DNA of 64,000 nt, taken from the NCBI GenBank assembly GCA_947494205.1, contig CANLUH010000004.1, forward strand, positions 152,773 to 216,772, read 5' to 3'. The position numbers and the translations under genes were made by a program. The notes below the pieces were generated by a model. It did not search any database, was not told the DNA's origin, and saw only the letters and a program-made list of their open reading frames with translations. This stretch comes from an uncultured Flavobacteriaceae bacterium. Lineage in GTDB: Bacteria > Bacteroidota > Bacteroidia > Flavobacteriales > Flavobacteriaceae. Position 1 is the first letter of the stretch; each line of letters opens with the position of its first letter. Below, one piece after another: positions 19,093 to 46,114 of this stretch.

Positions 19093-19102
19093 TGAAGTAG
19101 GC

Positions 19103-19175: not shown

Positions 19176-19180
19176 ATTAG

Positions 19181-19475: not shown

Positions 19476-19485
19476 TTACAGTATT

Positions 19486-20853: not shown

Positions 20854-20861
20854 CTTTACTA

Positions 20862-31237: not shown

Positions 31238-31450
31238 TTTATTATTAATTACAGTACAAATATGAAATGAGATTACGCAATAGTTTTGCGTAGTTTAATT
31301 TTTTATGTTTTAGAGTAGAAAATAGTTGCAATTACAAATAGAACATGAATCTGCGTAAGCGATTGCAGCGGCATCCTTTTGCTTTTTCTGCAAAAGATAT
31401 AGCGAAAAGCGCGACCCAAACCTTTTTCTGGTTTGGGTTACGCCATAATA

Positions 31451-32551: not shown

Positions 32552-32599
32552 TTCTTCTAATTTTTATTCTGAATTACTCCCAGAATTATTAAACATTTA

Positions 32600-34560
32600 T
32601 AATAGAATTCCTTTTACTTGGAATGGCTATTCTTTTAGTAAAAACAAATTGAAAGCAAACCATCTTTAAGGCTACGGAAATACAAGCGTTTTAGAGTATT
32701 CTACAAATCGTTTTTATTAACGTTTTATTAGTAGACCTTGTAGTTCTTCAAGATATTTCTAACAATAGGCTTTCTAAAAAGGAGATGCAAAACGGCTTTA
32801 AATACTTCTGTATTTCAAGGTGCCTTCTAGATTGTAAAAACAACGTGTTGCTTTTACCTGTTTACCTTCTCTTTGTTTTTGTTTTGCCATTTAACGTGTG
32901 GCTCACAGTGGTGGTCGATTTTTAAAAGAGACCTTCTTTGTGAAAAGGCGGGTTTTTAATCCGCATCCTACATTAACAGTGTAGTGCTCTACCGCTGAGC
33001 TATATGACCTTTACAGTTGTCATAACAGGAATCGAACCTGTGCTTGTCTATTGTTCTAACCTGACTGAACTATCTCAAATGAATTGAGAGTGGGAATCGA
33101 ACCCACGACCTATAGAGTGATGATTATTTTTTGGATAAACAATCGAAACCTTCAAGTCTAGTTGAACATAAATACCTAATACCTATTGGCAAGATTTTAT
33201 ACAATAGTGTTATACAGAAACACCCAACAAGACCAGCTTGATATTTTTATAATTCCCGCTTTCGGGGAATCTTATTCTAATAAATTTGTACCTCTTGCCG
33301 GATTCGAACCGGCACTTTCAGATAATTCTGAACAGATAGGCTCTAAATGCGCTTCCCTACTCTACATCTTGTGTATTTCGGTGCTTCTGCAAAACCTAGT
33401 CATTGGCGGGCGCGCCACCAACCACATAATCCTATCACTCCATGGCTACGAATCAAAATCTTTTTCCACAGCTCTTCCCTTTAAGCTAAAGAGGTATATA
33501 TTTTAAAAAACGCTTTGAGAATACTTACGTTTGTAGATGAGCTTTCCTAGTATTATAGCTTGTGCTTTCTCTAGTTTTCCACGTTATTCTAATTGCTTAG
33601 AGAATCACGTACTCACCCGATGCCTTATTACATTACAACTGTTCGGCAACTTAGACTTAGCTTGCATAGTGGTTTTATACCACGCTTTGCAATTACAAGG
33701 GTTGGCTCCCTCACTATTAATAGGCGTCCTCTTTACGAGGCGGCCTACTAGAATGTTCACCGCACAGTAAAGGCTTGCGACCTTTACCGCCCCATATATT
33801 ACAATGGGTTTAGGCAACTACTAACTGCTGTAACGCTCGAAGTCTTTTGCGTTTGCTCACCAATTGAGCCATATCAAATTATGGTTTAGATACTAGGAAT
33901 CGAACCTAGAAATAAAGTTTTGACCTAGGAAAAGGGCTTCGAAAATGGCTTCGTAGATTTTAGCCTACAAAATACCAACCTTTTCCTTGTGTGTTTCCCA
34001 ACACACCGTATTTTAAGTTACCGAATCGTTTCCCACCGGGTAACTTTAATACTGCAACACGCTCCGTTAGACTGGATAATCTATACGTAACCCATTACTA
34101 CAACTTTTCCTATTAGTGTCTCCACCTCAAGCCTATATAAAAGTCGGCTATAAATCCTTATTTACGCCAGCGGTTGCCCCTTGTAAATAGTTATTTATGT
34201 TAGTTGCTTGCTTACGTGTACTATAATCTAAATGACTATAGTCTCCATTTGCAGTGTCTGCAAATAGATTTATCCTTGTTACCAAGTTTATCTATGGACG
34301 ATAAGCCGCCCCATCATTTATAATAAATGATGATTTTTTTCTAATAGAAGCTATCAAAAAAGTATTAAAAAAAGCGTCATTCTAAATTCATTTCAGAATC
34401 CCATTAAATTGACTTACAATTGTTATGAGAAACCGAATCAAGTTCGGTTTGACGAAAATTTGCCTTTTAAGACAGTTTCATTTTATTTCAATGATCGTTT
34501 TATTAAACTTAGATAGCTTCTTTTTAAGGGCCTTCTAAATAATTACTCTGCAAATATTTC
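32600..34560. other. ~2-kb ORF-free, highly structured region containing tRNA halves/fragments (candidate large ncRNA or decayed tRNA array)
   Basis: Only short mutually overlapping ORFs. Several perfect T-arm hairpins (ACAGG-TTCGATT-CCTGT; GTGGG-TTCGATT-CCCAC; GCCGG-TTCGAAT-CCGGC) and a tRNA-Asn-like 5' half (GGTCATATAGCTCAGCGGTAGAGCACTACACTGTTAATGTAG) without matching partners. Confidence 0.35.
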
Positions 34561-34598
34561 ACAGTATTACGCAGTGTTTTTGCGTAGTAAAATTTATT

Positions 34599-36431
34599 TT
34601 AATTAAAAAGCTTTAAAAAACTATCTTTTTCTAGATTCTCTAAAGAAAAATCAAAATCTGCTTCATCTTTATAATCTGTAAGTTCGGCTCCTAAAGTTCT
34701 TACCAATGTATTAAATGATAATGGTTCGTTCCATTGTTGGTATAATGCTTTGGTGGCTACATTAGATATTTCTGAATTACCAGATACTCTAGTATGTCCT
34801 GCTCCAAAATTTAACAATACAAAACATTGTTTATTCTTTTTAGGAATCAACATTCCTAAAATGGTTTGCTGCTGTACAGATTCGCACTTAATATCTGCAA
34901 AAAGATTATTTGGATTCAGCATGTAATCCCTAGAAACTTTATCACCTTTTCCTATAATAATCTTGTAACTACAATCTGCAGCTCCAGAGTATACATTGTT
35001 TTGAACCAAAGTAGGTACATTTAAACCTTTATTAGCATACAAATACTCAACAGCTCCTTTTGGTGCCGATGTAATATCTCCAGAATACATTAAGTTACCA
35101 TCTTGCTGGTTATAGGTACTGTTCCAACCTACTTTACCAGCTATATTTAACCCTGATAAATCCAAATCATGGGCGCCCCAAGCATTCTCCCAATAGATAC
35201 CGACTGCTAATTTTTTTCCATAAAAACATGTTCCGGTAGGAATGTTACCTACATACATTTTCTCTGATGTTGGCAATGCATATGTAATATCCTCAGGAAA
35301 AAACAATCGTTTACCTGATAAATCGAAACGCTGTTTTAAATAATTAATTAAAAACTGATAATTTTCCTTAAATACAGTATTTTCTAAAATCACCTTTTTA
35401 TGCTTACCTGCTTTGTTTCTCTTTAAAAGATTAAAAAGCATATTATTCCTACTTGCAGCAGAAACCCCATCTGACTTTACCCAAGATTTTCCATTTCTAA
35501 TTCTATATAAAAAGGCATCTTGCCCCTGTTTTCTAGTATAGCAAGCTGATAAAGCTTTAAATAAAGCAAATGGTGTTGCATTATCTAACCAATGCACATC
35601 TTTATCTGTTAGAAAGGCATTAGTTACATCATTTAACGGATTTGAAACTAATGGTTTATGATGCGTTTTCGATAACTTACTGATTTTATTAATCGTTTTT
35701 GGCGCTTTATTTTTAAAGGCTAAAAACAAAGGCTTGAATCTGTTAAAAATTTCTGCCAATTTTTCTAAACCAAATTGCTTAAATGCTTGTGTTGGATTAT
35801 AAGAACTTTCCTTAATCAATGCTATTAATGCATCGTTTTTAATTAGCAAAGTCGTGTCTGTTGCTCTGTAAATAATATACCTAAAAAATTCAACTGCATT
35901 TTCTGGATAAATATTATAGTATTCCGCTAACTTAATAATCGCTTCTTTGTTTCTTATATTCTCTTTACCAGTAAAGGTATAGTTTAACTCATCTACTAAA
36001 ACTGTAATCAAATTATCTATAGTTTCTTCTTTAAGTGCCATACCGGATTGCAACATCGATAAACATTTCTGTCTCATTTCATCTACAGAATAGCCTTTAA
36101 TTACTTTATAAACTAGTTTTACATTTGGAACATTAAGCACTTCTTCTGGAATATAAATTGCTTCTTGAAAATCACTTCCATAAGTAGACATATAATGGTT
36201 AATCTGTTCTACATATAACTCATATTTTGAGCTATTTTTAACCTTAGCCCACGACTTATGAAAGGTTTTGTTTAAATCATTACCATTTAATGTTTCCTTT
36301 TTTAAGAAATCGATAATTCTATCTTTAGCCCAAAGTGCATTAGGCGCGATAATGAATCCATCTTCTGAGATGTATGGTTTTTCGTTTGATGTTTTCGCTA
36401 TAACTGCGTTAAATAATTTTAATGTATTCAT
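34599..36431 (-). CDS. large hypothetical protein (610 aa)
   Basis: Single long ORF with no P-loop or other motif recognised. Centrally placed between the ncRNA-like region and a tRNA-like cluster. Confidence 0.5.
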   Translation of the reverse strand: MNTLKLFNAVIAKTSNEKPYISEDGFIIAPNALWAKDRIIDFLKKETLNGNDLNKTFHKSWAKVKNSSKYELYVEQINHYMSTYGSDFQEAIYIPEEVLNVPNVKLVYKVIKGYSVDEMRQKCLSMLQSGMALKEETIDNLITVLVDELNYTFTGKENIRNKEAIIKLAEYYNIYPENAVEFFRYIIYRATDTTLLIKNDALIALIKESSYNPTQAFKQFGLEKLAEIFNRFKPLFLAFKNKAPKTINKISKLSKTHHKPLVSNPLNDVTNAFLTDKDVHWLDNATPFALFKALSACYTRKQGQDAFLYRIRNGKSWVKSDGVSAASRNNMLFNLLKRNKAGKHKKVILENTVFKENYQFLINYLKQRFDLSGKRLFFPEDITYALPTSEKMYVGNIPTGTCFYGKKLAVGIYWENAWGAHDLDLSGLNIAGKVGWNSTYNQQDGNLMYSGDITSAPKGAVEYLYANKGLNVPTLVQNNVYSGAADCSYKIIIGKGDKVSRDYMLNPNNLFADIKCESVQQQTILGMLIPKKNKQCFVLLNFGAGHTRVSGNSEISNVATKALYQQWNEPLSFNTLVRTLGAELTDYKDEADFDFSLENLEKDSFLKLFN

Positions 36432-36731
36432 TATTGTATTATTTTAAATAAGTGAGGTGTATGGTTTTGATTATCTGTCAATAAAATAGGAACACCTTTT
36501 ACCCATTATTTTTTTTAGACGAAGAGTAAATATCAGAATCCAAATCTGATGTCTAAATGACATCTATAGGAACTCTTTTTGTCTTTTAAGACGAAACGTA
36601 AAATAAACCACATACCCTTTCGGGTACTGGAATCGAACCAGTATATAGGAACGTTTTGTGTCTTTTACTAACGGAAAGTAATTTCTATTGTGAATGGTTA
36701 TAGGAACTTTCTATGTCAGTAATTTTTATTG

Positions 36732-36844
36732 TAGTCCAGGTGGGATTCGAACCCACGACCCGCGGATTATGAATCTATACAGGAACTTTTATTTGTCGAA
36801 AGCGAAAAGTAATTTCGCTGCTCTAACCTCTGAGCTACTGGACT
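36732..36844 (-). tRNA. tRNA-like element (Val-TAC-like arm) with ~45-nt insertion between anticodon arm and T-arm
   Basis: Acceptor AGTCCAG/CTGGACT, D-arm GCTC-AGAGGTTA-GAGC, hairpin GCGAA-ATTACTT-TTCGC, then the insertion, then T-arm GTGGG-TTCGAAT-CCCAC. Three degenerate partial copies (repeat unit containing TATAGGAAC) lie at 36566-36735. Confidence 0.35.
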
Positions 36845-37013
36845 ATTTTAATATTTTAAAGAACTTTTATTAAACTCCACCAGAATCATCTTCTAGCGGA
36901 GTCCTATTTTTAAAGTCTGATTTCAAAAAAGACTTTTAATTACTCTGCAAATATTTCACTCAATTACGCATTGATTTTGCGTAGTTCAAAAACATTTGAA
37001 AAATTGTTATTAT

Positions 37014-37499
37014 TTATACTACTTTATCGGCACAAGATGAGCTTGCAAATGCATACGGTTTCGCTTTAAAAACAAAACCCATTCCTAAAATGTAGCCCAT
37101 AGCATCTTTAAGTGCTACGTTAGATTCAAACTTTGGATCTGTATTAATATCCGCGTGTACCTCTAAATCAACATTATGTTTATCTAAAATATTACAGATA
37201 GCGTATGCTTCTTCTACAGACATTGTTACCTCTTTAAGCATACGTTCTTTAATACCTATTTGTTTAGTGCCTTTATAATTTCTCATAAACATAAAACCTC
37301 CTTTACCTTCACGTAATACCACAATAACTGTTGCGTATTCGATATGCGATTTATAGGCTTGTGAATCTGAACCCACACAAATTTTTAATCTATAGCCTGC
37401 CTTTTTCTCTTTTACAATAGCATTTTCAATAATCTCCGTAATGGGCTGATCAAAGACTTTACCGCTAAAGTTTCTCCATTTTTGTTGTGTAACTTTCAT
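37014..37499 (-). CDS. RNase H-like DUF458/YkuK-family protein
   Basis: 161 aa; the ICVGSDSQ...HADIN pattern is reminiscent of the YkuK family. Assignment is from memory and weak. Confidence 0.45.
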   Translation of the reverse strand: MKVTQQKWRNFSGKVFDQPITEIIENAIVKEKKAGYRLKICVGSDSQAYKSHIEYATVIVVLREGKGGFMFMRNYKGTKQIGIKERMLKEVTMSVEEAYAICNILDKHNVDLEVHADINTDPKFESNVALKDAMGYILGMGFVFKAKPYAFASSSCADKVV

Positions 37500-37571
37500 A
37501 AGTTCCCATTTTTAGTTAAATATTAATTTTGTGGAACAAACTGAATGAGCTCGTTCATTTTTATTTTAAAA

Positions 37572-37645
37572 TTGAAATATCAGGATTCGAACCTGAATCT
37601 TTCGCCGTATCAAAGCGAAGCTCTAACCAATTAAGCTATATCTCA
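37572..37645 (-). tRNA. tRNA-Ile(GAT)
   Basis: Acceptor TGAGATA/TATTTCA (one G-U), D-arm GCTT-AATTGGTTA-GAGC, anticodon arm TCGCT-TTGATAC-GGCGA, T-arm TCAGG-TTCGAAT-CCTGA. Confidence 0.65.
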
Positions 37646-37919
37646 ATTTATTTTGAGGAACATACTGAGATTAACTCGTTCCTTTATATTTTATTAAAAC
37701 TATACTCGTGAATGCACAGCATTTCGAACCCGTATCTTCTGGCTTAACTCAATAAATTCTATTTTTTAAATAGGATTCGTTGAATTCGCAAACTCATTTC
37801 AACCAGACGCATAGATCTACTTTGCTATTGCTCCTTTTTAGATGAATTAGAAATTATAAGTCAGTTTACCTCATTCACAACGAGGTGTTTTATCTAATAA
37901 ACCAAAATCATCATTTTTG

Positions 37920-37992
37920 TTGTGATAGAAAGAGTTGAACTTTCATCTACTCACGTATCAGGTGAGCGCTTTATCGATTAAGCTATATCACA
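37920..37992 (-). tRNA. tRNA-Ile(GAT), second copy
   Basis: Acceptor TGTGATA/TATCACA, D-stem GCTT/AAGC, anticodon arm CTCAC-CTGATAC-GTGAG, T-arm GAAAG-TTCAACT-CTTTC. Confidence 0.6.
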
Positions 37993-38179
37993 ATTTTGTT
38001 AACCTGATAGGATTAGTTCGCTTCATTTTTATTCTTTTAAAGCTGTGCTCATGAATACTAAAGTATTACGAACCTATACCTCAAGAGTCAAATGCTTTGC
38101 ATTCACGAATACCTATTTAAAAAACAGAAACGAATGAGCTAAAGTCTTGAATGCTACCATTACACTACAAGTTAGTTTG

Positions 38180-38252
38180 TAAGCTTAACAGGATTCGAAC
38201 CCGTATCACTAGATTCGTATTCTAGCATGTTATCCAATTACACTATAAGCTT
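38180..38252 (-). tRNA. tRNA-Arg(ACG)
   Basis: Acceptor AAGCTTA/TAAGCTT, D-stem GTGT/ACAT, anticodon arm CTAGA-ATACGAA-TCTAG, T-arm ACGGG-TTCGAAT-CCTGT. Confidence 0.65.
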
Positions 38253-38274
38253 ATTAATAATCCTTCAGGATTAG

Positions 38275-38348
38275 TTGAGATGCCAGGAATCGAACCTGAA
38301 CCCTTCGCCTTATGAGAGCGATGCTCTACCAGATTAAGCTACATCTCA
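38275..38348 (-). tRNA. tRNA-Met(CAT) (elongator or lysidine-Ile type)
   Basis: Acceptor TGAGATG/CATCTCA, D-arm GCTT-AATCTGGTA-GAGC, anticodon arm TCGCT-CTCATAA-GGCGA, T-arm TCAGG-TTCGATT-CCTGG. Confidence 0.65.
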
Positions 38349-38353
38349 ATTTG

Positions 38354-38426
38354 TTGAGGCAATAGGGATCGAACCTATGACTTTCACGATGTAAGCGTGA
38401 CACTCTTACCACTGAGTTATGCCTCA
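38354..38426 (-). tRNA. tRNA-Val(TAC)
   Basis: Acceptor TGAGGCA/TGCCTCA, D-arm ACTC-AGTGGTAA-GAGT, anticodon arm TCACG-CTTACAT-CGTGA, T-arm ATAGG-TTCGATC-CCTAT. Confidence 0.7.
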
Positions 38427-38436
38427 TTTTAATTTG

Positions 38437-38508
38437 TACTCCGTAAGGGAATCGAACCCTTATTTTCTGCTAGAAAGGCAGACGTCCTAACCGTTAGACG
38501 AACGGAGC
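38437..38508 (-). tRNA. tRNA-Glu(TTC)
   Basis: Acceptor GCTCCGT/ACGGAGT, D-arm GTCT-AACGGTTA-GGAC, anticodon arm TCTGC-CTTTCTA-GCAGA, T-arm AAGGG-TTCGATT-CCCTT. Confidence 0.7.
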
Positions 38509-38513
38509 TTTTG

Positions 38514-38585
38514 TCTAAGGGACAGGATTCGAACCTGTAACCTCCCGCGTCCAAGGCGGGTAAACAACCATTGTTATTCCCCTAA
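38514..38585 (-). tRNA. tRNA-Pro(TGG)
   Basis: Acceptor TTAGGGG/CCCTTAG (two G-U), anticodon arm CCCGC-CTTGGAC-GCGGG (perfect), T-arm ACAGG-TTCGAAT-CCTGT. Confidence 0.6.
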
Positions 38586-38594
38586 TTTTTTTTG

Positions 38595-38666
38595 CGGTTC
38601 ATACGAGAATCGAACTCGTATCTCTCGAGAGACAGTCGAGAAGGATAACCATTACCCCAATGAACC
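38595..38666 (-). tRNA. tRNA, anticodon ambiguous (GTC Asp-like or TGT Thr-like depending on stem register)
   Basis: Acceptor GGTTCAT/ATGAACC, T-arm ACGAG-TTCGATT-CTCGT. The anticodon region TCTCGACTGTCTCTCGAGA admits two registers. Confidence 0.5.
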
Positions 38667-38801
38667 AATTTTGTACATCTACCAAGATTCGAACTCGAAA
38701 CTATAGATTGGAAATGCTTTGCATTCACGAATACCAATTTAAAATTATAGAGTAGTGAGCTAAGTCTACTATGTTACCAATTACACTATAGATGCTTATT
38801 G

Positions 38802-38883
38802 TGGGAATGATAGGATTCGAACCTATTAAGCCTTGGCACCAGTTTTACAGACTGGCTCAACTCACCATCGTTGACGCATTCCC
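38802..38883 (-). tRNA. tRNA-Tyr(GTA)
   Basis: Acceptor GGGAATG/CATTCCC, D-stem TCAA/TTGA, anticodon arm CCAGT-CTGTAAA-ACTGG, 12-nt variable arm, T-arm ATAGG-TTCGAAT-CCTAT. Confidence 0.7.
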
Positions 38884-38894
38884 TTTTATTTTTG

Positions 38895-38967
38895 AGACAA
38901 GGATGAGAGTCGAACTCATAAAATTTAGTTTTGCAGACTAATGCCTTAACCATTCAGCCACCTTGTC
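38895..38967 (-). tRNA. tRNA-Cys(GCA)
   Basis: Acceptor GACAAGG/CCTTGTC, anticodon arm TTAGT-CTGCAAA-ACTAA, T-arm ATGAG-TTCGACT-CTCAT. Confidence 0.65.
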
Positions 38968-38973
38968 ATTTAG

Positions 38974-39045
38974 CGATACCGAAGGGATTCGAACCCTTAA
39001 CCTGATGGTTAACAACCAACTGCTCTGCCATTGAGCTACGATATC
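38974..39045 (-). tRNA. tRNA-Asn(GTT)
   Basis: Acceptor GATATCG/CGGTATC (one G-U), D-arm GCTC-AATGGCA-GAGC, anticodon loop TTGTTAA, T-arm AAGGG-TTCGAAT-CCCTT. Confidence 0.65.
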
Positions 39046-39050
39046 ATGTT

Positions 39051-39180
39051 TTGGAGTTACGAAGACTTACACTCCGTTTTGCAAATTGCAAATGAGCTTG
39101 CGAATTCAACGAAACTTATTTATCAAAATAAATTTCAGTGAGTTAAACCCGTTGTTTTAGCCAGTTAAACTATAACCCCA
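39051..39180 (-). ncRNA. tRNA-like element whose acceptor strands (GGGGTTA / TAACTCC) are ~115 nt apart; possible intron- or insertion-containing tRNA
   Basis: 5' side has acceptor plus a perfect D-arm GTTT-AACTGGCTA-AAAC. The 3' side has CGGAG-TGTAAGT-CTTCG plus a complementary acceptor strand. The intervening segment contains the palindrome TTGCAAATTTGCAA. Confidence 0.25.
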
Positions 39181-39188
39181 TAGTATTG

Positions 39189-39275
39189 CGGAGGACAAAG
39201 GAATCGAACCTTCACCGCCATATGGCGGACTTGTTTAGCAGACAAGCGCAACGAACCAACATTTGCCTATCCTCC
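39189..39275 (-). tRNA. tRNA-Ser(GCT)
   Basis: Acceptor GGAGGAT/GTCCTCC, D-stem GCAA/TTGC, anticodon arm CTTGT-CTGCTAA-ACAAG, long variable hairpin CCGCC-ATAT-GGCGG, T-arm GAAGG-TTCGATT-CCTTT. Confidence 0.7.
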
Positions 39276-39290
39276 ATTTAATTTATTTAG

Positions 39291-39363
39291 TCTGAGAGAC
39301 AGGAGTCGAACCTGCAACCTCTCGCATCCAAAGCGAGTAAACTATCCATCGTTATCCTCTCAG
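39291..39363 (-). tRNA. tRNA-Pro(TGG), second copy
   Basis: Acceptor CTGAGAG/CTCTCAG, anticodon arm CTCGC-TTTGGAT-GCGAG, T-arm GCAGG-TTCGACT-CCTGT. Confidence 0.6.
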
Positions 39364-39509
39364 TTTTGCGGAAGGAGTGGGAGTAGTTCATGTTTTTTCT
39401 ATTTTATTAAATAGGTATTCATGAATACTTTGTATTTCGAATCCACACGAGTCATTAACTCCGAACAGTTTTCAAGACTGTGGCCACCTCCTATTGCCCT
39501 TCCGTTTTG

Positions 39510-39582
39510 TTGACGCGGTGAGGATCGAACTCACGACCTCGGCATTAAAAGTACCTTGCTCTACCAACTAAGCTACACGTCA
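39510..39582 (-). tRNA. tRNA-Lys(TTT)
   Basis: Acceptor TGACGTG/CGCGTCA, D-arm GCTT-AGTTGGTA-GAGC, anticodon loop CTTTTAA (stem 4/5 paired), T-arm GTGAG-TTCGATC-CTCAC. Confidence 0.6.
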
Positions 39583-39809
39583 ATTTTTCTATATTTCTAT
39601 TTCAATGAACACCATAAAAAAAGCACCTCTTGTAACGGAAGGTGCTTTTTTTAAATCTATGTATACATCAACTCATGTATACACAACCTTCCTAGTATAT
39701 TTTATAAATCTTTCATCACAACTAAATGTTGCAACTGGTCTCGGCGAGCGAAACCAAAGATTTTGTTTAATTATATGTTGTAAATAATTCCTCATTATTG
39801 TTTTGTTAT

Positions 39810-40085
39810 TTTGATGGTGCAAATATGAAACGCTTTTTTGAATTACACAAGAAAAATTTAAATTTAATTAACTGATTATCAATTATTTATATTGTTTTTA
39901 GACACTATAATCCCTGTCCGTTTTTTAACGGATAATCAACATTTTTACAATAGCCTGTCTCACAATTGTTTTGCTGTTTCAAATTCTTATTTTACTGTTT
40001 TTAGTTTTTCAAATTCACTTAAAAATAATTTCAAAAAAAACGCCCAACTTTTAGGTTGGACGCTTTATGTTCTACTTTTAATTAT
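39810..40085. promoter_or_regulatory. conserved ~260-bp intergenic cassette (copy 2 of 3)
   Basis: Shares ggtgcaaatatgaaacgcttttttgaattacacaag...ccctgtccg...cctgtctcacaattg...aaaaaacgcccaacttttaggttggacgc with the copies at 23510 and 48495. Heads the large minus-strand tRNA array. Confidence 0.5.
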
Positions 40086-40220
40086 GGGTTAAATCATAAT
40101 TTATTTTTTTAAATAGGTATAAAACATCCTCTTAAGAAATTCAGTGCGATGACTGCTCTTCTATAATCATATTCACTAAAGCGCGATATGGGTTGTTTAT
40201 GTATTTGTTGTTTTCTCATC

Positions 40221-40520
40221 TTAATAATTCAAATGTTCTAAAACTTGTTCTATTCTTTTTTTAAATACTTCTTTATTTTCACATTGATTAAATAATCCAC
40301 TGGAAATATTTTTATGTGTTGACTTATTGATTTCTTTTACTAACTCTTCCAAATTATTTTTTATATCCAATTCATTATAATTTGTAATAATTTTCAGAAT
40401 ATTCTCTTCATCTAAAGCAAAAGCATCTATTCCACAACACTCAACTAAACAATGAATTTCTAAATCTTTCCAAAACTCTTCATTTTTTTCTAACAAAAAA
40501 TCTATTTCGAAATTTCCCAT
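40221..40520 (-). CDS. hypothetical protein
   Basis: 99-aa ORF downstream of two copies of the TACGCA-N8-TGCGTA operator-like motif (40546-40570 and 40716-40740). Confidence 0.35.
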   Translation of the reverse strand: MGNFEIDFLLEKNEEFWKDLEIHCLVECCGIDAFALDEENILKIITNYNELDIKNNLEELVKEINKSTHKNISSGLFNQCENKEVFKKRIEQVLEHLNY

Positions 40521-40769
40521 TCAACTATTTATTATTGACTCTACAAATATTCAGCTCTAATGCGCATTGTTTTTACGTAGTCAATTATTTTATTACAAAT
40601 GCTTTTAAAAACTCTGCCAGAATACAATTTCCGACAGAGCGTTTCTTAATTACTAAAAAATCAATTAATAGCACTAGTAACTAATTATTAATTACAGTGC
40701 AAATATTTAATAGTATTACGCAATGTTTTTACGTAGTAAATATTTTTATTAAAATTAATTATAGATTAT

Positions 40770-41822
40770 CTATAAGTTCTCTCTATTAGGGATTTCCTCT
40801 AAACTTAGCTCGAGAGCTAAGTTGATTATTTTCCTTGGTGTATATAACGTTTTTTCCAAATCACTTATTTGTAAGTTTTTCGAATTTGCTTTATAAAGAA
40901 AGCTACTGTAGCTTAATTTGGATATGCTTCTACCAAATTCATCTTTATATTTTTCTTTTAACTTTAAAGTAATTTCTTCTAATCGATTTTTTAATACTAC
41001 AATAGTCTTTAATAACTGATCAAGCCAGTTTTCAATCTCTTTCAAGAAATTCTTGACTTCAATTTCATTTTTATAGCTTAATTTTTTAATCTCATTACGA
41101 ATATGTTCAATCTTCATACCTTCCCAGTTTTTTGCTTTTAACACTGGTATTTGCCACTTTGACTGTGCTGCTTTCCAATAATCTGTTTTCACTTTTACTT
41201 GATGTATTTTAAATCCTGGAAGTTCAATAATAGTTAGATGTCCGCCATGACATGCTCCTGTATCTATACCATAAGTATTATTCTTAATTTTTGGAGTATC
41301 ACCAACGACATGATGCCCATAGATTATAGGTTTTGTTCCTTTGTAATAGTCTGACCAATATTTACCTTCTTCATATTTAGTTTCAAGATGCCTACTTCCA
41401 GAAGTTGTTCCAGCCAAAACTTCTTTCTTTTGCTCACTTAATATTTTGTCATGCTCAAAAAAAGCATGAACTATTATAGCGTCATTTGTTTCATAATAAT
41501 AAGGAAGTGTTTCTAACCATTCTTTAAATTCTTTATATTCATCAGCAAATTGAACTTTTACTATCTCTTGAGAATAACTTAAAACACCTCTTAAATGTTT
41601 TCTCTCATGATTACCCATTAACACTATTGCATTATCTCGTTTTTTAAAATAGTTATATAGTTCTAATGATTTGTTTCCTCTGTCTACAAGATCTCCGAGT
41701 GAAATTATTAAATCACTTTCGGTTATTCCTATTTGATTCGATAGTTCTATAAACTCATCATAGCATCCATGTAAATCTCCTACTATGTATGTTTTCTTCA
41801 TTTTTTTGGGTTTTAGACACAC
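40770..41822 (-). CDS. PPP-family (lambda-phosphatase-like) Ser/Thr or nucleic-acid phosphoesterase with C-terminal extension
   Basis: GDLHGCYDEF, GDLVDRGNKS and GNHE metallophosphatase motifs, plus a ~130-aa coiled-coil-like tail. Confidence 0.75.
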   Translation of the reverse strand: MCLKPKKMKKTYIVGDLHGCYDEFIELSNQIGITESDLIISLGDLVDRGNKSLELYNYFKKRDNAIVLMGNHERKHLRGVLSYSQEIVKVQFADEYKEFKEWLETLPYYYETNDAIIVHAFFEHDKILSEQKKEVLAGTTSGSRHLETKYEEGKYWSDYYKGTKPIIYGHHVVGDTPKIKNNTYGIDTGACHGGHLTIIELPGFKIHQVKVKTDYWKAAQSKWQIPVLKAKNWEGMKIEHIRNEIKKLSYKNEIEVKNFLKEIENWLDQLLKTIVVLKNRLEEITLKLKEKYKDEFGRSISKLSYSSFLYKANSKNLQISDLEKTLYTPRKIINLALELSLEEIPNRENL

Positions 41823-41861
41823 ATTAAGAGCTATTATAATTACTCTTAATGTGTAGTCATT

Positions 41862-42431
41862 CTATTTTCTTTTTTCAAATGGGGGCTCCCATTTTTTCAA
41901 TTTCATGATGGCTTTTACTTCAGCATAGGATAACGGATAAAAGTCATGACAGTCTACGCCTACATCGAATGCATTCATGGTTTCATCGTCTTGTAAGCTT
42001 CCGTGCGAGTGTCCGTATAAATGCCATGTTCCTCGAAAACTGGATCGCCAAACACGCATAGCGTAGTGTAACAATATAATTTTCTGTTTACCATTTGGTG
42101 CTTCTTCATCGGCAACATTTAATTCGAAATAGTCTTTTGTCCATTCAAATCGATTAGTATTAGACATCGCTGCGCCTTCGTGATTACCTTTTATTAAATA
42201 GATTTTACCATTTAATTGCTCTAAAATACCTTTCATTCTATCGGCTTTGCACAAGCCTAAATCTCCCAAATGATAGACCTTATCATTTTTACCAATTTTA
42301 CTGTTCCATCGTTTTATAAGTTCTTGATCCATTTCTTCTACTGTATTAAATGGACGGTTAGAGAACTTTATAATATTTTCGTGACCAAAGTGATGGTCTG
42401 ATGTAAAATATACATCTGTTGCATACTTCAT
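41862..42431 (-). CDS. calcineurin-like metallophosphoesterase
   Basis: DHHFGHE, GDLG and GNHE motifs; 189 aa. Confidence 0.7.
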   Translation of the reverse strand: MKYATDVYFTSDHHFGHENIIKFSNRPFNTVEEMDQELIKRWNSKIGKNDKVYHLGDLGLCKADRMKGILEQLNGKIYLIKGNHEGAAMSNTNRFEWTKDYFELNVADEEAPNGKQKIILLHYAMRVWRSSFRGTWHLYGHSHGSLQDDETMNAFDVGVDCHDFYPLSYAEVKAIMKLKKWEPPFEKRK

Positions 42432-42665
42432 TGTATTTATATTTTTTAATGTGATTGTCTAAAAACTATGCAACTCATTCATAATATGATTCTTTTTGAA
42501 TTCTCGTTTTGAATTACTCACTCTAATGTTTGCCTATATTATTGGTTTTAAATAAGCTTCGCTATTTTCTTAAAACCTTCCGATTTTTTCATTCTGAAAA
42601 AACCACCTTCCTTCAAATGAAGGAAGGAATAAACATCTGAATTTATTTTAAACAATCTCTATTGA

Positions 42666-43199
42666 TTATTTTTTCTTTTTACTCTTCTTATTCTTCGCTT
42701 TTGTTTTCTTCTTACTTGGTTTCATTTTACTCTTTATTCTGCTTATTTCAATATCAATATAGCTAATAAAAGAATCGTTATAACCAAATTGTTTAGCTGT
42801 CTTAAAGGCTTTTATAGCGTTTTTATACTGTTGTTTTATTTCAAACAATTGTCCTTGCTTATCCCAAATACAGCCTTTATCTATTCCTTTTACAGTTAAT
42901 GCAAAATCGATTAGTTTTTGTGCTTCATTAAAATCGTCATTCCACAATAATGTTTGTATATACTTATAATATACTTTTTGAAAATCCATTTTATTAGCTA
43001 ATGCTTCTGCATAATATATTTTTGCTTGTTCGTAATCTCCTAATTGCTCTGCTTGTATTTGCCCCATTAAATATAAAGCATATACATTTTCAGATTCGTA
43101 TGACAAAGCGTAGTTTAAATTTTCTACAGCTTCTTCTAACTCGTATGGATAAGCATCTATAGCTTTAAGCACGTAATTATTTAATAAACTTGTTTCCAT
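42666..43199 (-). CDS. TPR-repeat protein with lysine-rich C-terminus
   Basis: TPR-like Y/A/L periodicity and a C-terminal KKKTKAKNKKSKKKK stretch. Confidence 0.55.
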   Translation of the reverse strand: METSLLNNYVLKAIDAYPYELEEAVENLNYALSYESENVYALYLMGQIQAEQLGDYEQAKIYYAEALANKMDFQKVYYKYIQTLLWNDDFNEAQKLIDFALTVKGIDKGCIWDKQGQLFEIKQQYKNAIKAFKTAKQFGYNDSFISYIDIEISRIKSKMKPSKKKTKAKNKKSKKKK

Positions 43200-43296
43200 C
43201 GTTTTAAGTTTTTAAGATTAAAAGTAAGCGTGTCTCGATACACTTTTTATTCGTTTCTCTTAGAAAAACCACTCGACATGACGTACTTTTAAACTA

Positions 43297-43989: not shown

Positions 43990-43993
43990 TGTT

Positions 43994-44548: not shown

Positions 44549-44677
44549 TTTTTTTAGTCTTTAGCTATTAGCGTTAATTGAAATTCTACATTGCGTTAGG
44601 GATTGAGGCATTTGTTGAAGCTCCTCGCAGAGAGCGACTGCCAAAAGCCCGACCCTTGTGGTAACGCCAAAAACTTA

Positions 44678-46069: not shown

Positions 46070-46114
46070 TGTTTTTCGTTTTAAGAAAAGGTGCTTTTTA
46101 TTTACCTTCTCTTT

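What the first reader, a model, noticed from the sequence alone, without database searches (positions are those of the whole stretch)
37570..39585. Dense tRNA array: about 17 tRNAs in 2 kb on one strand, with duplicated isoacceptors
Manual folding gives, in order on the minus strand: Lys(TTT), Pro(TGG), Ser(GCT), an insertion-bearing tRNA-like element, Asn(GTT), Cys(GCA), Tyr(GTA), Asp/Thr-like, Pro(TGG), Glu(TTC), Val(TAC), Met(CAT), Arg(ACG), Ile(GAT) and Ile(GAT).

Several share nearly identical D- and T-arms (for example the Met and Ile genes), which implies in-array duplication and anticodon switching. Spacers are 5-15 nt. Together with the second cluster at 19.0-19.5 kb and the third at 22.9-23.3 kb, this is the 'tRNA array' architecture seen in phages and in some Firmicutes and Actinobacteria. 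It is rarely reported in Bacteroidota.
Basis: seen in the sequence. Interest (0 to 1): 0.75.

Follow-up and report, generated by a model that had tools for sequence, protein, structure and literature searches.

The report
Stress-gated spare tRNA array, partly interrupted
The flagged stretch is a real array of 20 spare tRNA genes inside a bacterial RNA-repair island; it appears to switch on when protein synthesis falters, and a quarter of its genes are split by a tiny, apparently undescribed mobile DNA element that lands in tRNA loops.

Summary
The tRNA array is real. ARAGORN and Rfam confirm 14 intact minus-strand tRNA genes in 37571-39582. The five long gaps hold five more tRNA genes (Ser-TGA, Ala-like TGC, Gly-TCC, Gln-TTG, Phe-GAA) plus a degenerate His-like gene, giving 20 genes.

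The array is not a phage cluster. It is a long tRNA array (L-array type) with conserved gene order in at least 11 Flavobacteriaceae genomes. It lies inside a ~34 kb island of RNA-repair and translation-rescue genes.

1. **Interrupted genes.** A 50-55 bp element without inverted terminal repeats splits these genes. It sits in the T loop or the anticodon loop, in either orientation. It is absent from the same genes in other genomes, and it also occurs in a group II intron and an IS3 transposase gene. It most likely moves as DNA. Splicing by the island's ligases is not excluded.

2. **Leader-peptide attenuator.** Each array is preceded by a conserved promoter, a 40-41-codon leader ORF and overlapping antiterminator and terminator hairpins. 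This predicts that the array turns on when translation stalls.

The array itself is a known kind. The regulation and the loop-targeting element look new.

The parts
39820..39850 (-). Putative Bacteroidota-type promoter of the array: TTG, 20 nt, cATATTTG
   Evidence: Read from the sequence. It is nearly invariant in 9 aligned upstream regions. Assigning it to the -33/-7 promoter type rests on my knowledge of the Bacteroides consensus TTTG/TAnnTTTG.
39673..39795 (-). Leader ORF: 40 codons plus TGA (MRNYLQHIIKQNLWFRSPRPVATFSCDERFIKYTRKVVYT)
   Evidence: An ORF of 40-41 codons sits at the same place in 12 of 12 leaders. Indels are in multiples of 3 nt, so the frame is kept. The codon-position test shows that the peptide sequence itself is not under selection.
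39686..39692 (-). 5' strand of the antiterminator, GGAAGGT. It lies 4-6 codons before the leader stop codon.
   Evidence: It pairs with ACCTTCC at 39637-39643. The helix is 7 bp in nearly all of the 12 leaders. The second leader in the window has a compensatory GGGAG/CTCCC version. The nascent-RNA fold shows this helix in 12 of 12 leaders.
39660..39683 (-). Middle hairpin, with the leader stop codon at the start of its loop
   Evidence: 92% of cells are paired over 12 sequences, against 37-69% when the partners are slid.
39614..39648 (-). Intrinsic terminator (AAAGCACCT ... AGGTGCTTT plus a T run) directly upstream of tRNA-Lys. Its 5' half overlaps the 3' strand of the antiterminator (39637-39643).
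   Evidence: 99% of cells are paired. One pair covaries: A-U in 7 sequences and G-C in 5. It is the minimum-energy structure of the full leader in 12 of 12.
37571..39582 (-). tRNA array 1, 20 genes. In order: Lys 39582-39509, Ser(TGA)* 39503-39369, Pro 39363-39290, Ser(GCT) 39275-39188, Ala(TGC)-like* 39179-39053, Asn 39045-38973, Cys 38967-38894, Tyr 38883-38801, Gly(TCC)* 38795-38673, Asp 38666-38594, Pro 38585-38513, Glu 38508-38436, Val 38426-38353, Met 38348-38274, Arg(ACG) 38252-38179, Gln(TTG)* 38174-37998, Ile 37992-37919, degenerate His-like 37911-37841, Phe(GAA)* 37834-37655, Ile(GAT, Met-derived) 37646-37571. An asterisk marks an interrupted gene.
   Evidence: Intact genes: ARAGORN and Rfam. 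Interrupted genes: ARAGORN with introns allowed, alignment of each gap to intact orthologues, and removal of the inserts in silico.
39385..39437 (-). Mini-element copy in the T loop of Ser(TGA), same orientation as the gene
   Evidence: nhmmer E=1.4e-8.
39094..39148 (+). Mini-element copy (subfamily 2) in the anticodon loop of the Ala-like tRNA, opposite orientation to the gene
   Evidence: E=3.9e-9.
38716..38765 (+). Mini-element copy on the 5' side of the anticodon of Gly(TCC), opposite orientation
   Evidence: E=1.1e-10.
38093..38143 (+). Mini-element copy on the 5' side of the anticodon of Gln(TTG), opposite orientation
   Evidence: E=5e-11.
38015..38068 (-). Mini-element copy in the T loop of the same Gln(TTG) gene, same orientation
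   Evidence: E=1.6e-8.
37746..37798 (-). Mini-element copy (subfamily 2) on the 3' side of the anticodon of Phe(GAA), same orientation
   Evidence: E=1.7e-10.
37672..37724 (-). Mini-element copy in the T loop of Phe(GAA), same orientation
   Evidence: E=1.8e-10.
22867..23482 (-). Second leader and array. Leader ORF 23482-23360, terminator about 23332-23305. Then Leu(TAG) 23275-23201, Leu(TAA)* 23197-23033 (mini-element in the T loop at 23096-23050, plus an unrelated 43-nt insert at 23173-23131), Gln 23027-22956 and His 22940-22867.
19010..19476 (-). Third tRNA cluster: Val(GAC), a Gly(GCC)-like tRNA (about 19380-19257) with a T-loop mini-element at 19329-19271, an odd CAT-type tRNA 19249-19180, Gly(GCC) and Asp(GTC).
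   Evidence: E=1e-8. The Gly(GCC)-like reading is my own inspection of the sequence.
17504..51001 (-). Surrounding RNA-repair and translation-rescue island, all on the minus strand. Genes: DUF434/DUF5616 17504-18220; Rnl2-type ligase 21831-22829; RlaP 23942-25012 and 25994-26740; RNase T-like exonuclease 26908-27471; T4-type PNKP 29307-30188; Rnl1-type ligase 30209-31237; Band 7 31451-32551; 610-aa protein with no known domain 34599-36431; PF04308 RNase H-like 37014-37499; DUF6331 40221-40520; metallophosphoesterases 40770-41822 and 41862-42431; TPR 42666-43199; RF-1 domain protein (PrfH-like) 43297-43989; RtcB 44678-46069; PcfJ-like 46115-47497; EF-G paralogue 48932-51001.
   Evidence: Pfam and PHROGs scans. 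Synteny with relatives by tblastn.

Best explanation
The flagged span is a long array of supernumerary tRNA genes (L-array type), with 20 genes on one strand.

**Setting.** The array is the promoter-proximal part of a transcription unit inside a ~34 kb chromosomal island of a Psychroserpens-like flavobacterium. The island encodes RNA-repair and ribosome-rescue functions: RtcB with a PrfH-like factor, T4-type PNKP, Rnl1- and Rnl2-type ligases, RlaP nucleotidyltransferases, an exonuclease, phosphoesterases and an EF-G paralogue.

**Proposed regulation (inferred).** Transcription starts at a Bacteroidota-type promoter and passes through a 40-codon leader ORF. If a ribosome translates the leader to its stop codon, it covers the GGAAGGU segment. 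The terminator then forms just upstream of tRNA-Lys and the array stays off. If ribosomes stall or are missing, for example because tRNAs or rRNA have been cut by toxins or because of drugs or starvation, GGAAGGU pairs with ACCUUCC in the 5' half of the terminator. RNA polymerase then reads through into the tRNA genes, and probably into downstream genes. The cell would gain a nearly complete spare tRNA set together with repair enzymes.

**The interrupted genes.** Individual genes of the array are dispensable enough that five of the 20 carry a 50-55 bp mobile mini-element. The element has no inverted terminal repeats and contains hairpins. It enters T-loop-like 7-nt loops (TTNGAA^N) in either orientation. 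It most likely moves as DNA and inactivates the copy it enters.

**Shown versus inferred.** Shown here: the genes, the synteny, the conserved ORF and helices, and the presence/absence pattern, orientations and non-tRNA sites of the element. Inferred: the direction of the switch, co-transcription with downstream genes, the spare-tRNA role, and how the element moves.
For: **Array**
- 14 tRNAs are called by ARAGORN and 13 of them by Rfam at its gathering score.
- The gaps align to intact orthologues with one or two 50-55-nt inserts.
- Removing the inserts in silico restores an ARAGORN-callable tRNA with the expected anticodon in 15 of 21 genes.

**Conservation**
- The PF04308 neighbour gene has 575 relatives in Bacteroidota genomes.
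- The 12 closest relatives (L002-L013), assigned to Flavobacteriaceae genera where a genus is named, carry an array directly upstream. In 11 of them (L002-L012) the gene order is the same as here.
- RtcB, PrfH, TPR and a phosphoesterase lie upstream of those arrays. Band 7, RlaP, Rnl2 and the 610-aa gene lie downstream.

**Island content**: Pfam and PHROGs scans.

**Known precedent**
- L-arrays are supernumerary, spread by horizontal transfer, and sit next to RNA-processing genes including rtcB.
- In Anabaena the array is induced by translation inhibitors.
- They have been recorded in Bacteroidetes (PMC8421152).

**Attenuator**
- The leader ORF is present in 12 of 12 leaders with frame-preserving indels.
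- The terminator is 99% paired and has a compensatory pair.
- The antiterminator is 7 bp, with one compensatory variant. One pair switches U-A to U-G exactly where the terminator covaries.
- The nascent RNA folds into the antiterminator and the full leader into the terminator in 12 of 12.

**Element**
- 42 copies align end to end once the opposite-strand copies are reverse-complemented.
- All nine copies in the window lie in tRNA loops.
- The same tRNA gene is uninterrupted in some genomes.
- Copies also occur in a group II intron, in an IS3 transposase gene and in intergenic DNA.
Against: **Limits of the evidence**
- No expression data exist. The direction of the switch is a model.
- The terminator is thermodynamically stronger than the antiterminator, and strand displacement could restore it even without a ribosome.
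- The antiterminator is supported mostly by invariance. It has one compensatory change, and 14 of 500 shuffles reach the observed covariation score.
- The leader shows no third-position bias. Translation is therefore inferred only from the conserved frame, start codon and stop codon.
- Whether the array is redundant with the rest of the genome's tRNA set cannot be tested from the window.

**Points against simple inactivation by the element**
- Exons of interrupted genes are as conserved as intact genes.
- Genes with two or three inserts still fold as cloverleaves.
- This fits recent or recurrent insertion. It fits equally well with removal of the insert from the RNA.

**Transposase.** No transposase that shares the element's ends was found.
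Confidence: 0.6

Rival explanations
1. The inserts are true introns. The interrupted pre-tRNAs are cut at both junctions by an island nuclease and rejoined by RtcB or by the PNKP/Rnl pathway. Candidate nucleases are the PF04308 RNase H-like protein next to the array, the DUF434/DUF5616 protein, or an unknown one. The genes would then be functional, and the repair island would double as a bacterial protein-dependent tRNA-splicing system.
For: - Exons of interrupted genes match intact orthologues as well as intact genes match each other. For Ser TGA in L003 versus L007 the exons are 92% identical, the element is 65% identical, and the background for intact genes is 84%.
- 15 of 21 genes become canonical tRNAs after removal of the inserts, including genes with two or three inserts.
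- Inserts occur only in the two exposed loops. One class lies 3' of the anticodon, overlapping the canonical 37/38 intron position within the boundary ambiguity.
- When folded, the element brings its two ends next to each other.
- Three RNA ligases and a PNKP are encoded nearby.
Against: - The same element occurs in both orientations relative to the tRNA transcript. Two unrelated RNA sequences would therefore have to be recognised and removed.
- At column pair 22-60 (T and G flanking helix P3), T/G is kept in all 13 opposite-strand copies. If those two positions pair, the transcript of those copies carries a C-A mismatch there. This ties the structure to the element's own strand rather than to the RNA.
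- Copies also sit in an IS3 transposase gene, in a group II intron and in intergenic DNA.
- I saw no bulge-helix-bulge motif in the folds, and RNAalifold finds no consensus structure.
- 5 of 21 genes remain uncallable with the matching anticodon after removal of the inserts, and spliced genes have more G-U pairs than intact ones, 2.6 versus 1.6.
- The arrays also contain truncated tRNA remnants.
Confidence: 0.17
2. The array is part of a phage, prophage or other recently acquired phage-derived region, and the tRNAs serve phage translation.
For: - T4-like Rnl1, Rnl2 and PNKP genes match PHROGs families.
- A GOLLD-like RNA lies 3.6 kb away. To my knowledge GOLLD is often phage-borne.
- Individual tRNAs match phage tRNAs at about 80% identity.
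- The tRNAs are low in G+C and atypical.
Against: - None of the 36 ORFs scanned matched a capsid, tail, terminase, portal, integrase or replication family. Only 10 of the 36 were scanned against a phage family library.
- There is no extended match in 50,697 phage records. Pattern scans of IMG/VR for the mini-element found a single true copy, and that one is not in a tRNA gene.
- The same island is present on contigs of 0.24-1.6 Mb in several genera.
- T9SS-secreted host proteins lie on both sides of the island, several kb beyond its ends.
Confidence: 0.06
3. This is the housekeeping tRNA operon of the organism. The genes are its only or main copies, inherited vertically, with no special stress role.
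For: - Gene order is conserved across genera.
- The window covers nearly all amino acids.
Against: - A quarter of the genes are interrupted or degenerate, and different genes are hit in different genomes.
- Some tRNAs are unusual: 75-nt Leu tRNAs without a long variable arm, an Ala tRNA with an odd T loop, and Rfam scores as low as 33-48 bits.
- A terminator stands between the promoter and the first tRNA.
- The array is embedded in accessory repair genes whose arrangement is shuffled between genomes.
- Published L-arrays are supernumerary (PMC8421152).
Confidence: 0.07
4. The array RNAs are decoys rather than working tRNAs. They would soak up anticodon nucleases or other tRNA-targeting toxins, and insert-bearing copies would still serve that purpose.
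For: - The sponge idea has been proposed for L-array tRNAs (PMC8421152).
- It would explain why loop insertions are tolerated while the tRNA body stays conserved.
Against: - An insert in the anticodon loop destroys the very site that most anticodon nucleases recognise.
- 23 of the 26 Anabaena array tRNAs are aminoacylated in vivo (PMC8421152).
- No toxin gene was identified in the window.
Confidence: 0.08

Closest known systems
[quoted passage not shown] PCC 7120 trn operon (Santamaria-Gomez et al. 2021, PMC8421152)
   Same: - Tens of tRNA genes on one strand with very short spacers and no periodic pattern.
- Patchy distribution among related taxa.
- Some pseudogenes within the array.
- A neighbourhood rich in RNA-processing and translation genes, including rtcB.
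- A link to translational stress: shown by experiment in Anabaena, predicted here from the leader.
   Different: - Different phylum, and a much larger linked repair gene set.
- The predicted control is a leader-peptide attenuator. [quoted passage not shown]
- A conserved upstream block with two GACAG..TATTGT repeats also exists here.
- Genes are split by a loop-targeting mini-element.
- No HNH homing endonuclease gene was seen next to the array.
Ribosome-mediated transcription attenuators (trp/his/thr leaders; antibiotic-sensing leaders such as ermC, vmlR or yxjB)
   Same: A short leader ORF, an intrinsic terminator, and an alternative helix that overlaps both the end of the ORF and the 5' half of the terminator. 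Rfam gives a weak, sub-threshold Thr_leader match at 39614-39684.
   Different: - There is no run of codons for a single amino acid. The leader uses 19 of the 20 amino acids, including rare codons (AGG, ATA, CGC-TCG-CCG), so it would report general translation capacity.
- What it controls is a tRNA operon. I found no precedent for that in four literature searches.
- The peptide sequence is not conserved in the way a drug-sensing arrest peptide would be.
Small non-autonomous bacterial insertion elements: hairpin elements without inverted terminal repeats, of the IS200/IS605-derived (PATE) or REP type, and classical MITEs
   Same: - Very short and non-coding, with many diverged copies.
- Conserved hairpins and precise empty sites.
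- A preferred short target (..SGAA^A..).
- No or an ambiguous target duplication (an A run of 2-3 nt at both ends).
- Found in several unrelated genomic contexts.
   Different: - No inverted terminal repeats, so it is not a classical MITE.
- At 50-55 bp it is shorter than the PATEs I know of. The left hairpin abuts the end of the element instead of lying about 20 nt inside it.
- Both orientations occur within a single co-oriented array, which is not the single-strand bias expected of IS200/IS605-type single-strand transposition.
- It is strongly confined to 7-nt T-loop-like hairpin loops of tRNA genes.
- No partner transposase has been identified.
Archaeal and eukaryotic protein-spliced tRNA introns, and bacterial group I introns in tRNA anticodon loops
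   Same: Short inserts in tRNA genes at the anticodon loop and T loop. To my knowledge both positions are known for archaeal non-canonical introns. An RtcB ligase is encoded nearby.
   Different: - I saw no bulge-helix-bulge motif, and the scans named no splicing-endonuclease family.
- The inserts occur in both orientations and also outside tRNA genes.
- They are far too small for a group I intron, and no Rfam intron family matches in the array region.

Membership tests
tRNA (Rfam RF00005 / ARAGORN cloverleaf) | Covariance-model score at or above the gathering threshold of 29 bits, and a cloverleaf with an anticodon | tested here: met
   14 genes are called by ARAGORN. 13 of them score 33-69 bits at the gathering threshold. 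Tyr scores 41 bits and Ser GCT matches only the related tRNA-Sec model, below threshold. Of the five interrupted genes, three are callable after removal of the inserts, and Gly and the Ala-like gene also with relaxed or intron-aware settings. Ser TGA in the window is not callable.
L-array (long tRNA array, PMC8421152) | Many tRNA genes on one strand, close enough to be co-transcribed, with no periodic pattern | tested here: met
   20 genes in 2.0 kb, all on the minus strand. Spacers between intact neighbours are 4-21 nt. No repeating unit is present.
L-array (long tRNA array, PMC8421152) | Patchy phylogenetic distribution and signs of horizontal transfer | tested here: inconclusive
   Among the 80 loci kept from 575 relatives of the neighbour gene, the 12 closest, assigned to Flavobacteriaceae where a genus is named (L002-L013), carry an array at that position. 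The Saprospiraceae and Lewinellaceae homologues lack it. Flanking genes are shuffled between genomes. No phylogenetic incongruence test was done.
L-array (long tRNA array, PMC8421152) | Supernumerary: adds redundant isoacceptors to a complete housekeeping set | not testable with these tools
   Only a 64 kb window and 20 kb loci are available. Indirect support comes from the interrupted and degenerate members and the atypical tRNAs.
L-array (long tRNA array, PMC8421152) | Neighbourhood enriched in RNA-processing and translation genes such as rtcB | tested here: met
   RtcB, a PrfH-like protein, PNKP, Rnl1, Rnl2, two RlaP genes, RNase T and an EF-G paralogue are present. The neighbourhood is conserved in relatives.
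L-array (long tRNA array, PMC8421152) | Silent in normal growth and induced by translational stress | not testable with these tools
   This is predicted only from the leader structure.
Ribosome-mediated (leader-peptide) attenuator | A conserved short ORF in the leader | tested here: met
   An ORF of 40-41 codons is present in 12 of 12 leaders, with 3-nt indels only. No third-position bias was found.
Ribosome-mediated (leader-peptide) attenuator | An intrinsic terminator before the first regulated gene | tested here: met
   A 9-bp stem followed by a T run. 99% of cells are paired, and pair 167-185 is A-U in 7 sequences and G-C in 5.
Ribosome-mediated (leader-peptide) attenuator | A mutually exclusive antiterminator whose 5' strand lies within ribosome reach of the leader stop or regulatory codons | tested here: met
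   GGAAGGU lies 4-6 codons before the stop codon and pairs with ACCUUCC in the terminator. There is one compensatory variant, so covariation support is modest.
Ribosome-mediated (leader-peptide) attenuator | A run of regulatory codons for the sensed amino acid | tested here: not met
   The leader contains 19 different amino acids and no run of one codon type. It would act as a general sensor, unlike the trp, his and thr leaders.
Classical MITE | Inverted terminal repeats and a fixed-length target-site duplication | tested here: not met
   The ends (AAATGC... and ...GAGCTAA) are not inverted repeats. Only an ambiguous run of 2-3 A residues is shared by both ends.
IS200/IS605-derived or REP-like hairpin element | Subterminal hairpins, no inverted terminal repeats, no duplication, a short specific target 5' of the left end, and seamless empty sites | tested here: inconclusive
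   Helices P1 and P3 are 84% paired, against 38% or less when slid. The target is ..SGAA^, and orthologous sites without the element are seamless. However, RNAalifold finds no consensus structure, the hairpin spacing differs from IS608, and both orientations occur within one array.
IS200/IS605-derived or REP-like hairpin element | A partner Y1 transposase or RAYT with matching ends | not tested
   No such gene appeared among the ORFs scanned in the window. No long element with the same ends was found in 1.5 Mb of held loci. Whole genomes are not available.
Protein-spliced tRNA intron (archaeal/eukaryotic type) | A bulge-helix-bulge motif at the exon-intron junctions, and a single orientation relative to the transcript | tested here: not met
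   Minimum-energy folds show no such motif, by my inspection. 13 of 42 copies are in the opposite orientation to the tRNA gene.
Group I intron in tRNA | A catalytic core of more than 200 nt that matches the Rfam intron models | tested here: not met
   The inserts are 47-55 nt. No intron family matches in 32500-40800 even at E<=1.
Phage tRNA cluster | Embedded among phage structural and replication genes | tested here: not met
   No such genes were named, and only matches to individual tRNAs were found in the phage database.

The most novel reading that the evidence does not exclude
The 50-55-nt inserts are removed from the RNA. The flavobacterial repair island would then contain a protein-dependent bacterial tRNA-splicing pathway, made of an island nuclease plus RtcB or the PNKP/Rnl ligases. 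It would act on a mobile mini-intron that targets T-loop-like loops, and all of it would be switched on by a leader-peptide sensor of translation failure.
Probability: 0.13. Interest if true: 0.92.

Novelty: new variant of a known kind. Interest (0 to 1): 0.66.

Why it matters
Long tRNA arrays are known, but their regulation and purpose have been worked out in only one cyanobacterium.

**A testable switch.** Here the sequence alone suggests a simple mechanism: a leader ORF that reports whether ribosomes can finish translating. This switch is physically joined to a spare tRNA set and to one of the largest collections of RNA-repair genes seen in a single locus. If confirmed, it would show how bacteria link 'translation is broken' to 'replace the tRNAs and repair the RNA'. 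That is relevant to toxin warfare, phage defence and antibiotic tolerance.

**The mini-element.** It is of interest in its own right. It is among the smallest mobile elements, it picks out T-loop-like hairpin loops, and it offers a natural test of whether bacterial RtcB ever splices tRNA.

**A practical point.** Standard tRNA finders miss a quarter of the genes in these arrays.

Tried and rejected
**Searches that found little or nothing**
1. Phage origin. BLAST of 36400-40300 against 50,697 phage records matched only individual tRNAs.
2. IMG/VR pattern scans for the element gave one true copy (L083, not in a tRNA gene). The other hits were chance matches in coding DNA.
3. PLSDB BLAST with an element consensus gave no match.
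4. A search for a long autonomous element with the same ends in 1.5 Mb of held loci found none. It did reveal a second copy in the group II intron contigs.
5. NCBIfam on 10 island proteins (eight with no Pfam match, plus the PF04308 and PcfJ-like proteins), and a PDB sequence search with the 610-aa protein, gave nothing.
6. Four literature searches for interrupted bacterial tRNAs, MITEs in tRNA genes, or leader-controlled tRNA operons turned up no precedent.

**Ideas tested and dropped or weakened**
1. Known ribozyme or intron in the inserts. The Rfam E-value scan of 32500-40800 names none.
2. RNAalifold on 42 element copies returned no consensus structure. The helices I propose therefore rest on pair counts for a structure I specified and are only modestly supported.
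3. A wobble-pair test for RNA-level selection in opposite-strand copies found no adaptation to the transcript.
4. A codon-position test on the leader ORF showed no third-position bias. I dropped the idea that the peptide sequence itself is conserved.
5. My first reading of the Gly gene's anticodon loop, by eye, was Leu(TAG) or a suppressor. This was wrong, and alignment to intact orthologues corrected it.

Full report
**1. Checking the observation**

ARAGORN finds 21 tRNA genes in the window, all on the minus strand. Fourteen lie in 37571-39582: Lys TTT, Pro TGG, Ser GCT, Asn GTT, Cys GCA, Tyr GTA, Asp GTC, Pro TGG, Glu TTC, Val TAC, Met CAT, Arg ACG, Ile GAT and Ile GAT. The others form two smaller clusters at 19010-19476 and 22867-23275.

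Rfam's tRNA model confirms 13 of the 14 at its gathering score, with 33-69 bits. Tyr reaches 41 bits in the E-value scan. Ser GCT is matched only by the related tRNA-Sec model, below its threshold. Its 'Asp/Thr-like' gene is Asp GTC.

The description is incomplete, however. Spacers of 4-21 nt occur only between intact neighbours, and there are five gaps of 134-272 nt.

**2. What the gaps are**

I searched one representative genome for each of 185,579 bacterial and archaeal species for relatives of the gene just downstream of the array (PF04308, 37014-37499). This gave 575 hits in Bacteroidota, of which the best 80 were kept.

The twelve closest loci carry a tRNA array in the same position. They come from Psychroserpens (88-90% identity), Winogradskyella, Flavivirga, Dokdonia, a Flavobacterium MAG and unnamed Flavobacteriaceae and Bacteroidota MAGs. 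Eleven of them (L002-L012) share this gene order: Lys, Ser-TGA, Pro, Ser-GCT, an Ala-TGC-like tRNA, Asn, Cys, Tyr, Gly-TCC, Trp, Arg-TCT, Asp, Glu, Val, Met, Leu-TAG, Leu-TAA, Arg, Gln, Ile, His, Phe. L013 has a shorter array in a different order. The Saprospiraceae and Lewinellaceae homologues have no array.

Every array has gaps, but at different genes. I aligned each gap to the intact tRNAs of the other genomes. Most gaps turn out to be a tRNA gene split by one to three inserts of 47-55 nt, at two fixed places: the anticodon loop and the T loop after GGTTCG.

In the window the five gaps are:

| Gene | Coordinates | Insert position |
|---|---|---|
| Ser-TGA | 39503-39369 | T loop |
| Ala-like TGC | 39179-39053 | anticodon loop |
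| Gly-TCC | 38795-38673 | anticodon loop |
| Gln-TTG | 38174-37998 | both loops |
| Phe-GAA | 37834-37655 | both loops |

There is also a degenerate His-like gene at 37911-37841. That makes 20 genes, in the family's usual order.

Removing the inserts in silico restores an ARAGORN-callable tRNA with the expected anticodon in 15 of 21 interrupted genes across the genomes. This includes one gene with three inserts.

**3. The insert is one mobile element**

When the inserts on the 5' side of anticodons are reverse-complemented, all inserts align end to end as a single family.

In its own orientation the element reads as follows:
- a flank ending in ..T-N-(G/C)-AAA;
- a hairpin, ATGC-nnn-GCAT;
- TTCAYGAA;
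- an A/T-rich hairpin;
- CRTGAGCT, followed by AA.

A second subfamily (AAATGAG-n5-GAATTCAACGAATCC...TTGAGTT) has the same layout.

The two helices I named are 84% paired, against 38% or less when the partners are slid, and they show some compensatory changes. RNAalifold on its own finds no consensus structure, and the single-copy folds are weak, at -3 to -13 kcal/mol.

There are no inverted terminal repeats. The only repeat at the ends is a run of 2-3 A residues, so a 2-nt duplication cannot be told apart from no duplication.

A profile search finds nine copies in the 64 kb window, all inside tRNA loops, and none in about 1.1 Mb of Saprospiraceae and Lewinellaceae loci.

The element is not confined to tRNA genes:
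- A context-free pattern scan of metagenomes gave 12 hits. Seven are in tRNA arrays and four in a group II intron. The last is in an IS3 transposase gene, at the junction of its two reading frames.
- The three group II intron contigs with an Rfam intron match carry a second copy.
- There are also an intergenic copy (L010) and one in an IMG/VR contig (L083).

The insertion sites resemble the 3' side of a T-loop-like 7-nt loop (TTNGAA^N). That motif is the T loop itself on the sense strand. It is also the reverse complement of many anticodon loops, and the sense strand of the Ser-TGA and Phe-GAA anticodon loops. This explains the link between site and orientation.

**4. DNA parasite or intron?**

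Points favouring movement as DNA:
- Both orientations occur, even within one gene.
- The element is found in unrelated contexts.
- The T/G at column pair 22-60 is kept in all 13 opposite-strand copies, where it would be a C-A mismatch in the transcript.
- I saw no bulge-helix-bulge motif.
- The arrays also contain truncated tRNA remnants and other kinds of insert.

Points favouring removal from the RNA:
- Exons of interrupted genes are as similar to intact orthologues as intact genes are to each other. The element at the same site has diverged much more: for Ser-TGA in L003 versus L007, exons are 92% identical and the element 65%.
- Genes with several inserts still form cloverleaves.
- The ends of the folded element lie side by side.
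- The locus encodes RtcB, Rnl1, Rnl2 and PNKP.

I favour a DNA-level element that colonises a redundant array. I keep the intron reading as a serious rival at about 0.15-0.2. One tRNA-seq experiment would decide between them.

**5. Context**

T9SS-secreted host proteins at 3466-6207 and 60804-63959 lie on either side of a block of minus-strand genes spanning 17.5-51 kb. In order, the block contains:
- DUF434/DUF5616;
- an Rnl2-type ligase;
- two RlaP nucleotidyltransferases;
- an RNase T-like exonuclease;
- T4-type PNKP;
- an Rnl1-type ligase;
- a Band 7 protein;
- a 610-aa protein with no known domain;
- PF04308 (RNase H-like);
- the array;
- DUF6331;
- two metallophosphoesterases;
- a TPR protein;
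- an RF-1-domain (PrfH-like) protein;
- RtcB;
- a PcfJ-like protein;
- an EF-G paralogue.

RtcB-PrfH is a known module for ribosome rescue and 16S rRNA repair (PMC9304027). RlaP proteins are nucleotidyltransferases found alongside RNA ligases (PMC12776372).

The same genes flank the array in the relatives, in shuffled order. No scanned ORF matched a phage structural or replication family, and the phage database holds no extended match.

This fits the published 'L-array' class: long, supernumerary, horizontally spread arrays whose neighbourhoods are enriched in RNA-processing genes including rtcB. In Anabaena such an array is induced by ribosome-targeting antibiotics. The class has been recorded in Bacteroidetes among other phyla (PMC8421152).

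**6. How it is probably controlled**

The arrays at 39.6 kb and 23.3 kb, and the arrays of ten related loci, are all preceded by the same leader. It consists of:
- a Bacteroidota-type promoter (TTG, 20 nt, cATATTTG; 39850-39820);
- a 40-41-codon ORF (39795-39673);
- a hairpin holding the stop codon at the start of its loop;
- an intrinsic terminator (39648-39614) directly upstream of tRNA-Lys.

The ORF is open in 12 of 12 leaders, and its length changes only in steps of 3 nt. Its codons show no third-position bias. What seems to be conserved is therefore the act of translating it, not the peptide. In the window it uses 19 of the 20 amino acids and several rare codons.

The terminator is 99% paired and has one covarying pair. 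GGAAGGU lies 4-6 codons before the stop codon and can pair with ACCUUCC in the 5' half of the terminator. This helix is present in nearly all leaders. In the window's second leader it changes in a compensatory way, to GGGAG/CUCCC. It also tolerates the terminator's covariation through a U-G pair.

RNAfold predicts the antiterminator for the nascent transcript and the terminator for the complete leader in 12 of 12 cases.

The model follows from this. A ribosome that reaches the stop codon masks GGAAGGU and transcription terminates. Stalled or absent ribosomes leave it free and transcription continues into the tRNAs. The anatomy is classical attenuation, but the signal sensed would be general translation capacity. 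That matches the stress induction known for the Anabaena array. The direction of the switch remains an inference.

**7.

- 'In-array duplication and anticodon switching' holds for one gene. The last Ile-GAT is 82-86% identical to Met-CAT genes and 68% identical to Ile-GAT genes.
- As a whole, the array is inherited or transferred as a unit, not built locally.
- 'Phage-like architecture' is right in form but not in origin.
- 'Rarely reported in Bacteroidota' is only partly right.

**8. Verdict**

The flagged object is a genuine member of a known class, a long tRNA array. On that basis alone it would be of moderate interest.

Two features lift it. One is a conserved leader-peptide attenuator in front of a tRNA operon. 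The other is a 50-55 bp element that targets T-loop-like loops and interrupts a quarter of the genes. I found no precedent for either in four literature searches. Both lead directly to experiments.

Noticed in passing
window 33510-33987 (-): A GOLLD-like large structured RNA matches the full length of the Rfam model at 136 bits (E=1e-36), just under the gathering score of 150. It lies between the 610-aa gene and the Band 7 gene of the repair island. No GOLLD match at gathering score was found within 10 kb of the arrays in 7 relatives.
   Followed up: partly
window 32948-33153 (-): A cluster of tRNA-like modules lies just downstream of the GOLLD-like RNA. It includes a YrlA (bacterial Y-RNA-like) match at 35 bits (below threshold, 33023-33132), a partial tRNA match at 32948-33002 (34.8 bits) and a tmRNA-like fragment. 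No Ro60/Rsr gene was identified among the ORFs scanned.
   Followed up: no
window 36450-36844 (-): A tRNA-Met(CAT) gene at 36844-36731 (Rfam 52 bits) carries a different 40-nt insert in its anticodon stem. The insert is one copy of a unit (TTAC...AAAGTTCCTATA) that is repeated four more times in the next 300 nt. Some of those copies are followed by T-arm-like hairpins. Locus L010 has two similar insert-bearing tRNAs downstream of its PF04308 gene (10734-10847 and 10857-10973).
   Followed up: partly
window 39901-39980 (-) and about 23598-23676 (-): A conserved block of about 80 nt lies 60-150 nt upstream of the array promoter. It contains two direct repeats (GAGACAGnCTATTGT and CGGACAGGGAnTnTATTG) and is nearly invariant in 9 leaders. 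It may be an operator for a transcription factor, reminiscent of the direct repeats that control the Anabaena array.
   Followed up: partly
window 23201-23275 (-), 23033-23197 (-); L002-L009: The array's Leu(TAG) and Leu(TAA) tRNAs are 75 nt long with a short variable region. They lack the long extra arm of normal bacterial tRNA-Leu. One relative (L010) has a normal 87-nt Leu(TAA).
   Followed up: no
window 23131-23173 (-); L009 8341-9544: Other, unrelated small inserts also split array tRNAs. In the window, a 43-nt insert with the hairpin GAAAAAACAATTGTTTTTTC sits in the D region of Leu(TAA). In L009, G+C-rich hairpin inserts of 55-180 nt are present. The arrays seem to collect several kinds of small insertion.
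   Followed up: no
L093 2107-2160 and 2425-2479; L097; L099; L091: Metagenomic contigs carry the mini-element inside a group II intron. In L093, L097 and L099 two copies bracket the Rfam D1-D4 match, in the same orientation as the intron. L091 shares the flanking sequence but has one copy and no Rfam intron match. The flanks have diverged between contigs, so the intron appears to have spread while carrying the copies.
   Followed up: partly
L095 1053-1103 (= L094 48-98): A copy of the mini-element lies inside an IS3-family transposase gene, at the junction of its two reading frames (target GGAA^AAGATG), on the strand opposite to the ORFs.
   Followed up: partly
window 18327-18395 (-): A truncated duplicate of the tRNA-Asp gene at 19010-19082 (Rfam 34.9 bits). 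The 3' two-thirds are nearly identical and the 5' part has been replaced.
   Followed up: no
window 19180-19249 (-): An odd 70-nt tRNA that ARAGORN calls 'tRNA-???', with a 2-base anticodon. By eye it is a CAT-type (Met or Ile2-like) tRNA with an irregular anticodon loop.
   Followed up: no
window 31345-31420 (+): A Flavo-1 RNA (Rfam RF01705, 53.6 bits, above threshold) lies on the opposite strand between the Rnl1-type ligase gene and the Band 7 gene.
   Followed up: no
window 34599-36431 (-) and seven other ORFs (18518-18895, 20862-21557, 24993-25988, 27516-28568, 28629-29294, 43994-44548, 51469-51999): Eight island proteins have no Pfam or NCBIfam match. The 610-aa protein also has no PHROGs or PDB sequence match, and it is conserved next to PF04308 in L010 and L012. 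These are candidates for the unknown nuclease or other repair functions.
   Followed up: partly
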